Shown here: positions 9,076-46,305 of the stretch, one piece after another | Numbering within the stretch: position 1 is the stretch's first letter | How the letters are laid out: every line of letters starts with the position of its first letter | NCBI RefSeq assembly: GCF_030013595.1 | Contig: NZ_CP122768.1 | Origin: Escherichia coli | GTDB lineage: Bacteria > Pseudomonadota > Gammaproteobacteria > Enterobacterales > Enterobacteriaceae | Reading direction: 5' to 3' (one strand) | DNA length: 64,000 nucleotides | Position numbers and translations under genes: made by a program | Notes under the pieces: generated by a model | What the model was told of the DNA's origin: nothing | The model's database searches: none | Seen by the model: the letters and a program-made list of their open reading frames with translations, nothing else

Positions 9076-9151
9076 TGGCTCCTCTGACTGGACTCGAACC
9101 AGTGACATACGGATTAACAGTCCGCCGTTCTACCGACTGAACTACAGAGGA
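9076..9151 (-). tRNA. asnV: tRNA-Asn (GUU)
   Basis: Reverse complement is the 76-nt E. coli tRNA-Asn with CCA end; anticodon loop cuGUUaa. Confidence 0.95.
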
Positions 9152-11482: not shown

Positions 11483-11558
11483 TGGCTCCTCTGACTGGAC
11501 TCGAACCAGTGACATACGGATTAACAGTCCGCCGTTCTACCGACTGAACTACAGAGGA
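11483..11558 (-). tRNA. asnU: tRNA-Asn (GUU)
   Basis: Identical 76-nt tRNA-Asn sequence. Confidence 0.95.
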
Positions 11559-13306: not shown

Positions 13307-13382
13307 TCCTCTGTAGTTCAGTCGGTAGAACGGCGGACTGTTAATCCGTATGTCACTGGTTCGAGTCCAGTCAGAGGAGCCA
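13307..13382 (+). tRNA. asnW: tRNA-Asn (GUU)
   Basis: Identical 76-nt tRNA-Asn sequence. Confidence 0.95.
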
Positions 13383-27689: not shown

Positions 27690-27765
27690 TGGCTCCTCTG
27701 ACTGGACTCGAACCAGTGACATACGGATTAACAGTCCGCCGTTCTACCGACTGAACTACAGAGGA
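27690..27765 (-). tRNA. asnT: tRNA-Asn (GUU)
   Basis: Identical 76-nt tRNA-Asn sequence, with the same 5' leader as asnV. Confidence 0.95.
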
Positions 27766-28756: not shown

Positions 28757-28846
28757 GGAGAGATGCCGGAGCGGCTGAACGGACCGGTCTCGAAAACCGG
28801 AGTAGGGGCAACTCTACCGGGGGTTCAAATCCCCCTCTCTCCGCCA
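28757..28846 (+). tRNA. serU: tRNA-Ser (CGA)
   Basis: 90-nt sequence GGAGAGATGCCGGAGCGGCTGAACGGACCGGTCTCGAAAACCGG...CTCTCCGCCA with long variable arm; anticodon CGA is wild type, not the supD form. Confidence 0.93.
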
Positions 28847-36295: not shown

Positions 36296-37483
36296 TTAGA
36301 ACTGGTAGACTAAGCCCACAGCTACGATATCATCGGTAGCGATGCCGTTTTCTTTGTAGAAGTCGTCGTCGTTGTCCAGCAGGTTGATTTTGTAATCAAC
36401 GTAGGTGGACATGTTTTTGTTGAAGTAGTAGGTCATACCAATATCAACATATTTAACCAGATCTTTGTTGGTGTAATGATGATTGCCCTGGCTGTCGAAG
36501 TTATCACTATTTACACCGCCTAAATCCTTACCTTTAGATTGCAGGTAAGCGATGGACGGGCGCAGACCGAAGTCGAACTGATACTGAGCAACCACTTCAA
36601 AGTTTTGGGTTTTGTTAGCGATCGCATCAGCATCACCGTAACCAGTCATGTTACGGGTTTCAGCATACATAGCTGCTAAGTAAACGTTATTAGCGTCGTA
36701 TTTAGCACCAACGGTCCATGCTTCTGCTGTTTCACCGCCAGCAGTTGCATCGAAGCGATCTCCATAACGAGTGTTATGAGTACCTTTGTGAACCTGATTG
36801 TCGGTACGGTCAGAGTTAGAGTAAGCAGCGCCCAGACTTAAACCAAAGTCAAAGTCATAGGAAGTGGACATACCGAAGCCGTCGCCGTTCTCTTTAGCTA
36901 ACTTACGGCCATTACCGTTACCAGAACCTTCCTGACCGAATAATCCATCATCTTCATTATTACCCTGATATTGCAGAGCAAAGTTCAGGCCATCGACCTG
37001 GCCAAAGAAGCCATTGTTACGGTAGGTTGCAACACCATTAGCACGACCGTTCATGAAGTTGTCGGCACCAGCATAGGTATCGCCACCAAATTCTGGCAGC
37101 ATATCGGTCCATGCTTCGATGTCATATACGACACCGTAGTTACGACCATAGTCGAAAGTACCATTCTGACCAAAGCCTAAACCTGCAAATGCCAGACGCG
37201 TTGCGGTATTACCTTTGTCGCTTTCAGGACCGTTTGCGCCAATGTTAAATTCCCACTGACCATAACCAGTGAATTGGTCAGCGATCTGAGTTTCACCTTT
37301 GAAACCGATACGGGCATATGACATGTCGCCATCGCTGCCAGCATCATCAGAGAAGTAGTGCAGGCCCGCTACTTTTCCGTACAAATCCAGTTTATTACCA
37401 TCTTTATTATAGACTTCAGCCGCATTTGCTGCGCCAGCAACTAATAACGCCGGGACCAGCATTGCCAGAACTTTTCTTTTCAT
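36296..37483 (-). CDS. yedS: OmpC/OmpF-family general porin, apparently intact
   Basis: About 395 aa from [21 protein letters not shown] with porin motifs through to the C-terminal ...GLVYQF. Confidence 0.85.
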
Positions 37484-37794
37484 TATGTATTCCCTTGTGA
37501 TTATAATCTTCATGAATATATCAATAAGTGCTGTTATCCAAAAAAAAGCACATTTGGATACTATTCTATGAAGTTCATTTTATTTTAAAGATTACATGTA
37601 ACAAATGTATTTAAAAGATTTCAAAATGTTTCCAATCTGTTTAATATAATTCAGAATTATGAATTCTGAATATAAATATTCACGAATATTATGAATGCAT
37701 ATCAATATGTTATGAGTTGAGCGGAAACATAGGGAGTATCAATGATTGTTGTGCTAAACGGCTGGTGTGATCTCGCGCACATTAATGAAGGCAT

Positions 37795-37819
37795 AAAAAA
37801 AGCCGGCATCATGCCGGCC
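37795..37819 (-). terminator. Orphan intrinsic terminator (minus strand) in the yedR-yedS intergenic region
   Basis: Perfect palindrome gccggcat c atgccggc followed on the minus strand by TTTTTTT; no minus-strand CDS ends just upstream. Confidence 0.6.
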
Positions 37820-38030
37820 CAAAAAATATAAACAAGACGATAAAAGGCTAATAACGGAAGCATCATGACACAGAATAATAAAAAGGGATAATTGTAATCA
37901 GTGCTAATATATTGATTGAATGAATTAATAAAGCCGATATCAAAGATAAATAAAATCGCTCAAAACGATTTTTCCTGTATTCACTGCCATTGCGCAAAAA
38001 TTATCTATTTGTTCAAAAAATGATTGAGTC

Positions 38031-38414
38031 TTGACTGGCTCATCCAATGTGGAAAAATGTGACTTTTATCACATAATAGTACTAAGTCTGAATTTTCCGG
38101 GTTATCTCAAAATGGAATACGGTTCGACAAAGATGGAAGAGAGACTCACTCGCAGCCCTGGTGGCAAATTGGCTTTGTGGGCTTTCTATACATGGTGTGG
38201 CTATTTTGTCTGGGCAATGGCGCGTTACATCTGGGTGATGAGCCGGATCCCCGATGCCCCCGTGTCGGGATTTGAAAGCGATTTAGGCTCTACCGCGGGA
38301 AAGTGGTTAGGGGCACTGGTTGGCTTTTTATTTATGGCTCTGGTCGGGGCATTGTTAGGCAGCATTGCCTGGTACACCCGACCTCGTCCCGCACGTAGCA
38401 GACGCTATGAATAA
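38031..38414 (+). CDS. yedR: Small inner-membrane protein
   Basis: About 120-127 aa with two hydrophobic segments; start uncertain. Confidence 0.75.
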
Positions 38415-46217: not shown

Positions 46218-46305
46218 AACACATCAGATTTCCTGGTGTAACGAATTTTTTAAGTGCTTCTTGCTTAAGCAAGTTTCATCCCGACCCCCTCAGGGTCGGG
46301 ATTTT
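46218..46305 (+). ncRNA. dsrA: DsrA small regulatory RNA
   Basis: AACACATCAGATTTCCTGGTGTAACGAATTTTTTAAGTGCTTCTTGCTTAAGCAAGTTTCATCCCGACCCCCTCAGGGTCGGGATTT matches DsrA, including the terminal stem-loop and T-run. Confidence 0.92.

What the first reader, a model, noticed from the sequence alone, without database searches (positions are those of the whole stretch)
37795..37900. Orphan minus-strand intrinsic terminator upstream of yedS: candidate small RNA
The perfect palindrome gccggcat-c-atgccggc followed on the minus strand by seven T residues has the form of a strong Rho-independent terminator. The nearest minus-strand CDS upstream (yedA) is more than 3 kb away, and yedR beside it is on the other strand. 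A short transcript starting between about 37830 and 38000 and ending here would lie just upstream of the porin gene yedS. I recall that the K-12 sRNA RseX maps between yedR and yedS, but I cannot confirm its sequence from memory, so the identity is open.
Basis: partly seen in the sequence, partly recalled or inferred. Interest (0 to 1): 0.35.

Follow-up and report, generated by a model that had tools for sequence, protein, structure and literature searches.

The report
Known small RNA gene rseX
The flagged terminator is the 3' end of rseX, a well-described Hfq-dependent small regulatory RNA of E. coli that lowers synthesis of outer-membrane proteins, so the finding is correct but ordinary.

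Summary
A perfect 8+8 palindrome (37802-37818) is followed on the minus strand by seven T (37795-37801). Only one other terminator of this strength occurs in the 64 kb window (DsrA's), and none occurred in 40 simulated sequences.

The element is the 3' end of rseX, window 37795..37884 (-). Rfam RF01401 matches full length at 97.7 bits (gathering score 50). The 90 nt are identical to K-12 rseX (b4603) apart from 7 rather than 8 tail U. Gene order is as in K-12: yedS(-), rseX(-), drpB/yedR(+), yedJ, dcm, vsr, yedA.

A TACAAT -10 lies 6 nt upstream of the K-12 5' end; the -35 is weak. The locus sits in a 27-33% GC island, which fits the published H-NS silencing.

The allele keeps complementarity to the Shine-Dalgarno regions of ompA and ompC. 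It also keeps the invariant terminator hairpin, whose loop was reported in 2024 to mediate fepA repression.

About 90% of complete E. coli genomes and other Escherichia species carry rseX.

Verdict: already known. Interest is low.

The parts
37795..37884 (-). rseX gene: a 90-nt Hfq-dependent small RNA (91 nt in K-12)
   Evidence: Rfam RF01401 matches at 97.7 bits, model positions 1-94 of 94, E=3e-12. The sequence is identical to K-12 b4603 except 7 versus 8 terminal U.
37795..37820 (-). Rho-independent terminator: stem GGGCCGGCA / UGCCGGCUU, loop UGA, seven-U tail. It is also the Hfq-binding 3' module and the 'terminator loop' element reported to drive fepA repression.
   Evidence: The stem-loop is invariant in 11 Escherichia alleles. 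Functional role of the loop: PMC11979758.
37835..37855 (-). Target-pairing (seed) region, RseX nt 30-50: GUUAUUAGCCUUUUAUCGUCU
   Evidence: The local accessibility-corrected duplex scan pairs nt 37-50 with ompA -21..-7 and nt 30-44 with ompC -15..+1, covering both Shine-Dalgarno sequences. This is the best conserved part of the RNA: 98.7% pairwise identity in alleles not selected by pattern.
37847..37871 (-). Weak 5' hairpin of the Rfam consensus (nt 14-38; 7 pairs, 3 of them G-U)
   Evidence: Taken from the Rfam structure line. There is no covariation, and three alleles break a pair. The MFE fold differs, so this hairpin is not established.
37891..37896 (-). Candidate -10 hexamer TACAAT of the rseX promoter, 6 nt upstream of the K-12 5' end
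   Evidence: Sequence inspection gives 5 of 6 matches. The -12..-1 block is 94-98% conserved while the DNA further upstream is 75%. PMC8313858 reports a sigma-70 promoter supported by 5' RACE in Douchin 2006. The consensus scanner did not call it because the -35 is weak.
37915..37920 (-). Best but weak -35 candidate, TTCAAT (3 of 6, 18-nt spacer). It lies within the region where an H-NS motif was reported in K-12 (-42..-32).
   Evidence: H-NS motif position from PMC8313858. This assignment is an inference.

Best explanation
Window 37795-37884 (minus strand) is the rseX gene. It is transcribed from its own weak sigma-70 promoter (-10 TACAAT at 37891-37896). Transcription ends at the flagged Rho-independent terminator, giving a roughly 90-nt RNA. 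Shown here: identity with K-12 rseX, the terminator, synteny, conservation, and retained complementarity to the targets. Taken from published K-12 experiments and transferable because the RNA sequence is identical: the RNA binds Hfq. Its single-stranded U-rich body (nt 30-50) pairs with the Shine-Dalgarno regions of ompA and ompC mRNAs, blocking translation and lowering the mRNAs. This relieves envelope stress enough to bypass the need for the protease RseP. The 5' region also represses fimB and ihfB. The 3' part (nt 52 to the end), through the exposed loop of the terminator hairpin, represses fepA in an Hfq- and RNase E-dependent way, apparently without direct pairing. Transcription is normally silenced by H-NS (backed up by StpA). 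This fits the 27-33% GC island that holds rseX and the yedS upstream region. The native inducing condition is still unknown.
For: Identity: Rfam RF01401 gives 97.7 bits against a gathering score of 50, full length. The sequence is base-for-base identical to NC_000913.3 b4603 over 90 nt, with one U fewer in the tail. Gene order hprRS-hchA-yedS-rseX-drpB-yedJ-dcm-vsr-yedA matches K-12.
Terminator: it is one of only two loci of this strength in 64 kb, with 0 in 40 simulations.
Conservation: rseX is present in 4878 of 5426 complete E. coli genomes. It is also in E. whittamii and two unnamed Escherichia species, each with a full-length Rfam match. Pairwise identity is 99% for nt 34-55 and 96% for nt 56 to the end, against 75% for the DNA from -60 to -13. 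The terminator is invariant.
Pairing: RseX nt 37-50 pairs with the ompA SD at a total of -12.7 kcal/mol, matched by 2 of 60 shuffled controls. RseX nt 30-44 forms 14 contiguous pairs with ompC -15..-2.
Composition: GC is 0.27-0.33 across 37350-38100, against 0.45-0.58 in the flanks.
Literature: PMC8313858 covers H-NS silencing, a ~91-nt band in delta-hns, and ompA, fimB and ihfB repression, and cites Douchin 2006 for Hfq dependence, 5' RACE and ompA/ompC. PMC11979758 covers fepA and the terminator loop. PMC7648144 describes the locus layout and the 91-nt RNA.
Against: No expression data exist for this strain, and in wild-type K-12 the RNA is undetectable under laboratory conditions.
The -35 is poor (3 of 6), and the consensus scan did not call a minus-strand promoter here.
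The ompC pairing is not better than shuffled controls once opening energies are included (17 of 60).
No covariation supports the 5' hairpin, and the whole RNA is not unusually stable (z = -1.33).
The targets ompA, ompC, fimB, ihfB and fepA lie outside the window, so their sequences in this strain were not checked. K-12 leaders were used instead.
Confidence: 0.97

Rival explanations
1. The gene is rseX by descent but is a silent relic. It is never expressed at useful levels from the chromosome, and the effects seen on overexpression are artefacts of multicopy dosage.
For: No transcript is seen in wild-type K-12 in any growth phase (PMC8313858) and none in Salmonella (PMC1804206). All regulatory phenotypes come from plasmid expression. 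The -35 is weak. The gene has been lost in about 10% of E. coli genomes and in several lineages by secondary loss (PMC3318445).
Against: The seed and terminator are far better conserved than the adjacent upstream DNA across Escherichia species. This points to purifying selection on the RNA. The transcript appears when H-NS is removed and was detected in late-growth RNA-seq (PMC12266141). A TraDIS study reported a requirement in S. Typhimurium (PMC3632133).
Confidence: 0.12
2. The hairpin is not the end of an independent RNA. It would instead be a terminator or insulator for read-through from upstream genes, or a protein-binding palindrome in the yedS regulatory region.
For: It lies about 310 bp upstream of the likely yedS start, inside an AT-rich regulatory spacer that contains other repeats.
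Against: No minus-strand gene lies within 3.2 kb upstream, and drpB diverges from it. The 64 nt upstream of the hairpin match the rseX covariance model and K-12 rseX exactly. The published 5' RACE and the ~91-nt Northern band define a discrete transcript.
Confidence: 0.01
3. The region encodes a small protein: the minus-strand ORF 37866..37702 (54 aa) begins inside rseX.
For: the ORF listing reports an ATG-initiated 54-aa ORF here.
Against: The ORF runs through the terminator, so a terminated transcript would lack its stop codon. No Shine-Dalgarno sequence precedes its AUG. Alleles differ by single-base length changes in the U runs inside the ORF, which would shift the frame.
Confidence: 0.01

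Closest known systems
RseX of E. coli K-12 (b4603; Rfam RF01401)
   Same: The RNA sequence is the same over 90 nt. The terminator, seed region and position between yedS and drpB, on the yedS strand, are also the same.
   Different: The tail has seven U rather than eight. Position -3 is A in K-12 and C here, and position -34 is T in K-12 and C here. The neighbouring porin gene yedS is intact here but a pseudogene in K-12.
MicF, MicC, MicA, RybB and OmrA/B: other Hfq-dependent sRNAs that repress outer-membrane protein mRNAs
   Same: All are trans-acting, Hfq-dependent, and pair at or near the ribosome-binding site of omp mRNAs. From my own knowledge, micF lies next to ompC and micC next to ompN, and rseX likewise sits beside a porin gene.
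   Different: There is no sequence similarity; Rfam assigns this locus only to rseX. RseX is not in the sigma-E or OmpR regulons and is H-NS-silenced instead (PMC8313858; PMC1804206).
SdsR and ArrS 3' ends (terminator-loop-dependent repression of fepA)
   Same: [quoted passage not shown]
   Different: The genes and sequences are unrelated. RseX responded differently to the compensatory stem mutant of the fepA 5' UTR.

Membership tests
RseX (Rfam RF01401) | Score at or above the curated gathering threshold of the covariance model, over its full length | tested here: met
   97.7 bits against 50, model positions 1-94 of 94, not truncated.
RseX (Rfam RF01401) | Sequence identity with the experimentally defined K-12 gene b4603 | tested here: met
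   All 90 aligned nt are identical. The only difference is 7 versus 8 U at the 3' end.
RseX (Rfam RF01401) | Syntenic position between yedS and drpB (yedR), on the same strand as yedS | tested here: met
   Annotated neighbours in strain HCP5S3_I2 and K-12. NCBIfam identifies the flanking ORFs as an OmpC-subfamily porin and DrpB.
RseX (Rfam RF01401) | Own promoter and a primary 5' end about 90 nt upstream of the terminator | tested here: inconclusive
   A -10 TACAAT lies at the right distance and is conserved. The -35 is only 3 of 6, and the consensus scan makes no call. The 5' end itself cannot be tested with these tools; published 5' RACE is cited in PMC8313858.
RseX (Rfam RF01401) | Complementarity to the translation initiation regions of ompA and ompC | tested here: met
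   For ompA, 13 pairs cover the SD at a total of -12.7 kcal/mol, matched by 2 of 60 shuffles. For ompC, 14 contiguous pairs cover the SD, but this is not better than shuffles after the accessibility correction (17 of 60). K-12 target leaders were used.
Hfq-dependent trans-acting sRNA | Rho-independent terminator with a U tail of at least 6 and an adjacent U-rich single-stranded stretch (the Hfq-binding module, from established knowledge) | tested here: met
   A 9-pair stem, seven U, and UUUAUAUUUUUU directly upstream of the hairpin.
Hfq-dependent trans-acting sRNA | Physical binding to Hfq and Hfq-dependent regulation | not testable with these tools
   Reported for the identical K-12 RNA (PMC8313858 citing Douchin 2006; PMC11979758).
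Hfq-dependent trans-acting sRNA | Detectable transcript in this organism | not testable with these tools
   No expression data are available for the source strain. In K-12 the transcript is seen only when H-NS is removed or late in growth.

The most novel reading that the evidence does not exclude
In strains such as this one, where the porin gene yedS is intact, rseX and yedS may form a porin-exchange module inside one H-NS-silenced AT-rich island. On de-silencing, YedS would be made while RseX lowers OmpC and OmpA. This would parallel micF beside ompC and micC beside ompN. Three results are compatible with it. yedS is full length here. RseX is complementary to the ompC and ompA ribosome-binding sites but not, above chance, to the yedS leader. 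Both genes lie in the same 27-33% GC stretch. None of this shows co-regulation.
Probability: 0.15. Interest if true: 0.35.

Novelty: already known. Interest (0 to 1): 0.07.

Why it matters
This matters little as a discovery. RseX was predicted in 2002, characterised in 2006, and studied again in 2021 and 2024. The practical points are three. First, the first-stage reader recognised an sRNA gene from terminator anatomy alone. Second, standard RefSeq annotation leaves this gene unmarked in nearly all E. coli genomes, so such 'orphan' terminators will keep turning up in scans. Third, this strain carries a K-12-identical RseX beside an intact yedS porin gene. That makes it a better background than K-12 for asking what RseX does natively, which is still an open question.

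Tried and rejected
1. Unrestricted RNA duplex folding of RseX against the whole ompA and ompC leaders gave meaningless full-length duplexes no better than shuffles. I replaced it with a local, accessibility-corrected scan of the translation initiation regions.
2. RseX regulating its neighbour yedS by pairing is rejected. The best duplex totals -4.6 kcal/mol, and 49 of 60 shuffled controls did at least as well.
3. Covariation support for the secondary structure is unobtainable. No pair changes on both sides in 11 alleles.
4. Distribution beyond Escherichia is unresolved. One exact-pattern scan of GTDB species genomes found only Escherichia plus one chance hit in an Aquificota MAG that has no Rfam match. 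The pattern requires exact bases in the seed, so diverged homologues are missed. Salmonella homologues are reported in the literature.
5. The strong-looking + strand promoter match inside rseX (37865-37892) as the drpB promoter is rejected. The drpB promoter was mapped between the old GTG start and ATG-22, window about 38050-38112 (PMC7648144). A 10-of-12 match is also expected by chance in this AT-rich spacer.
6. The primary paper, Douchin et al. 2006 (J Biol Chem 281:12253), is not held in the library. Its results are cited second-hand through PMC8313858.

Full report
**Observation.** The + strand at 37795-37818 reads seven A followed by gccggcat-c-atgccggc. On the minus strand this is GGGCCGGCAUGAUGCCGGC followed by UUUUUUU. 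The consensus scan lists it as a minus-strand terminator with 9 pairs, 6 of them G-C, and a 3-nt loop. It is the only stable element when the RNA is folded (centroid -14.6 kcal/mol).

I then applied a stricter definition: a perfect stem of at least 8 bp, at least 5 G/C, and at least 6 T in the next 7 bases. By that definition the 64 kb window holds two such loci on both strands together. They are this one and the DsrA terminator at 46279-46301. None appeared in 40 first-order Markov simulations of the window. The feature is therefore real and not a chance product.

- drpB (yedR) lies on the + strand.
- The next minus-strand gene upstream is yedA, about 3.2 kb away.
- The porin gene yedS lies downstream on the same strand.

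**Identity.** A scan of the region, and later of the whole window, against all Rfam families gave one match here. It is rseX (RF01401) at 37795-37884 on the minus strand, at 97.7 bits against a gathering score of 50. The match covers model positions 1-94 of 94 and is not truncated.

The K-12 MG1655 record annotates 'small regulatory RNA RseX' (b4603) at 2033649-2033739, between drpB and the yedS pseudogene. Aligned to it, the window is identical at every one of the 90 positions. The sole difference is seven rather than eight U at the 3' end.

The gene order is the same as in K-12: hprR-hprS-hchA-yedS-rseX-drpB-yedJ-dcm-vsr-yedA. RefSeq annotation shows no feature under the match in the other genomes listed. 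That explains why the terminator looks orphan.

**Anatomy.**
- The 5' end equivalent to K-12's is 37884.
- A TACAAT hexamer (5 of 6) sits 6 nt upstream, at 37891-37896.
- The best -35 candidate is weak: TTCAAT, 3 of 6, with an 18-nt spacer. The simple scanner accordingly made no call on this strand.
- The RNA body is U-rich. Apart from the terminator it is not unusually structured (z = -1.33).
- The small 5' hairpin of the Rfam consensus (nt 14-38) has three G-U pairs. It gains no covariation support in 11 alleles, and three alleles break a pair.
- GC content is 27-33% across 37350-38100, against 45-58% in the flanking genes.

**Conservation.** The 90-nt sequence is found in 4878 of 5426 complete E. 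coli genomes, nearly always once and on the chromosome. A pattern scan of one genome per GTDB species found it in E. coli, E. whittamii and two unnamed Escherichia species, each with a full-length Rfam match. It also gave one chance hit in an unrelated MAG that has no Rfam match.

That scan needs exact bases in the seed, so it cannot show absence elsewhere. Salmonella homologues are reported in the literature.

In an alignment of 11 alleles, variation clusters in three places: nt 6-12, the loop of the 5' hairpin, and the lengths of the U runs. Mean pairwise identity by region is as follows.

| Region | Identity |
|---|---|
| nt 34-55 | 99% (98.7% among the seven alleles not chosen by the pattern) |
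| nt 56 to the end | 96% |
| Terminator stem-loop | invariant |
| Upstream DNA, -60 to -13 | 75% |

The single-base length changes in the U runs also rule out the overlapping 54-aa ORF as a coding sequence.

**Mechanism.** The RNA is identical to K-12 RseX, so published K-12 results apply to it directly.
- *Discovery and targets.* RseX was isolated as a multicopy suppressor of RseP essentiality. [quoted passage not shown] 2006, as summarised in PMC8313858; also PMC7648144).
- *Silencing.* The RNA is not detected in wild-type cells. A ~91-nt band and a ~75-nt band appear in an hns deletion, and RNA-seq shows stronger de-repression in hns stpA.
- *Further targets.* It also represses fimB and ihfB, shown by gel shifts, lead probing and reporter assays with mutants.
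- *Terminator loop.* A 2024 study found that RseX represses fepA. The 3' part alone (nt 52 to the end, essentially the flagged terminator) represses 23-fold. Mutating the exposed loop of the terminator hairpin strongly impairs this. The effect needs Hfq and RNase E, and no direct pairing with fepA mRNA could be shown (PMC11979758).

My own test used a local duplex scan with opening-energy penalties against the K-12 leaders.
- RseX nt 37-50 pairs with ompA -21..-7 across the Shine-Dalgarno sequence. The total is -12.7 kcal/mol, and 2 of 60 shuffled controls did as well.
- RseX nt 30-44 forms 14 contiguous pairs with ompC -15..-2. With accessibility included this is not better than shuffles (17 of 60).

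The steps shown here are identity, terminator, conservation and retained complementarity. Hfq binding, repression and H-NS silencing are taken from the literature. Expression in this strain is inferred.

**What was rejected.**
- *Pairing with yedS.* RseX shows no above-chance pairing with the leader of its neighbour yedS.
- *The + strand promoter match.* A site inside rseX (ATGACA-16-GATAAT, 37865-37892) scores 10 of 12 here and 11 of 12 in K-12. A 10-of-12 match is expected by chance in this AT-rich spacer. The drpB promoter was mapped much closer to drpB (PMC7648144).

**Comparison and novelty.** This is a member of the RseX family by every feature that could be tested. It works like the other Hfq-dependent omp-repressing sRNAs (MicF, MicC, MicA, RybB, OmrA/B), and it has the recently described terminator-loop activity shared with SdsR and ArrS.

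It is already known. The only local particulars are the seven-U tail, two promoter-region substitutions (-3 and -34 relative to K-12), and an intact yedS next door.

The most novel reading left open is that rseX and an intact yedS act together as an H-NS-silenced porin-exchange module. I give it about 15%.

Noticed in passing
window 36296-37513 (-), likely start codon at 37483: The OmpC-like porin gene yedS is an uninterrupted ORF here. It has a full-length NCBIfam OmpC-subfamily match of 542 bits, above the cutoff of 484, and an N-terminus [21 protein letters not shown]. It is a pseudogene in K-12 and is annotated 'frameshifted' in strain HCP5S3_I2, which is 99.8% identical over the adjacent 501 bp.
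   Followed up: partly
window 37865-37892 (+): A sigma-70-like site, ATGACA-16-GATAAT (10 of 12; TATAAT and 11 of 12 in K-12), overlaps the first 20 nt of rseX and abuts its -10, pointing towards drpB. Both hexamers are otherwise invariant in the 11 Escherichia alleles (only the window has GATAAT), while the spacer varies. However, a 10-of-12 match is expected by chance in this AT-rich spacer (P about 0.56; 11 of 12, P about 0.07). The mapped drpB promoter lies elsewhere. Promoter competition with rseX is untested.
   Followed up: partly
window 46218-46304 (+): The DsrA small RNA gene (Rfam RF00014, 102.5 bits against a gathering score of 60). Its terminator at 46279-46301 is the only other terminator in the window as strong as the rseX one.
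   Followed up: no
window 37581-37696: The AT-rich yedS upstream region holds several repeats: a perfect 10-bp inverted repeat ATTCAGAATT/AATTCTGAAT (37649-37671), a 16-nt direct repeat (37581-37596 and 37608-37623, 88% identical), and two copies of ATTATGAAT (37656, 37688). These may be regulator-binding sites for yedS. No regulator was identified.
   Followed up: no
window 37765-37794 (-), just downstream of the rseX terminator: The 20 or so bases after the terminator (AUGCCUUCAUUAAUGUGCG) are conserved across Escherichia species. The downstream 30 nt are 88-94% identical, against 75% (all 11 alleles) to 90% (the seven E. coli alleles) for DNA upstream of the promoter. The reason is unknown. 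They may be part of the yedS regulatory region.
   Followed up: no
window 9076-9151 (-), 11483-11558 (-), 13307-13382 (+), 27690-27765 (-), 28757-28846 (+): Four tRNA-Asn (GTT) genes and one tRNA-Ser (CGA) gene. From my own knowledge of the K-12 map, this matches the asnT/W/U/V and serU region, in inverted orientation relative to K-12.
   Followed up: no
locus L010 (Aquificota MAG contig JAADDZ010000019.1) 11480-11501: The 22-nt rseX seed pattern has an exact hit in an unrelated MAG, but there is no Rfam rseX match. I treated it as a chance match.
   Followed up: partly
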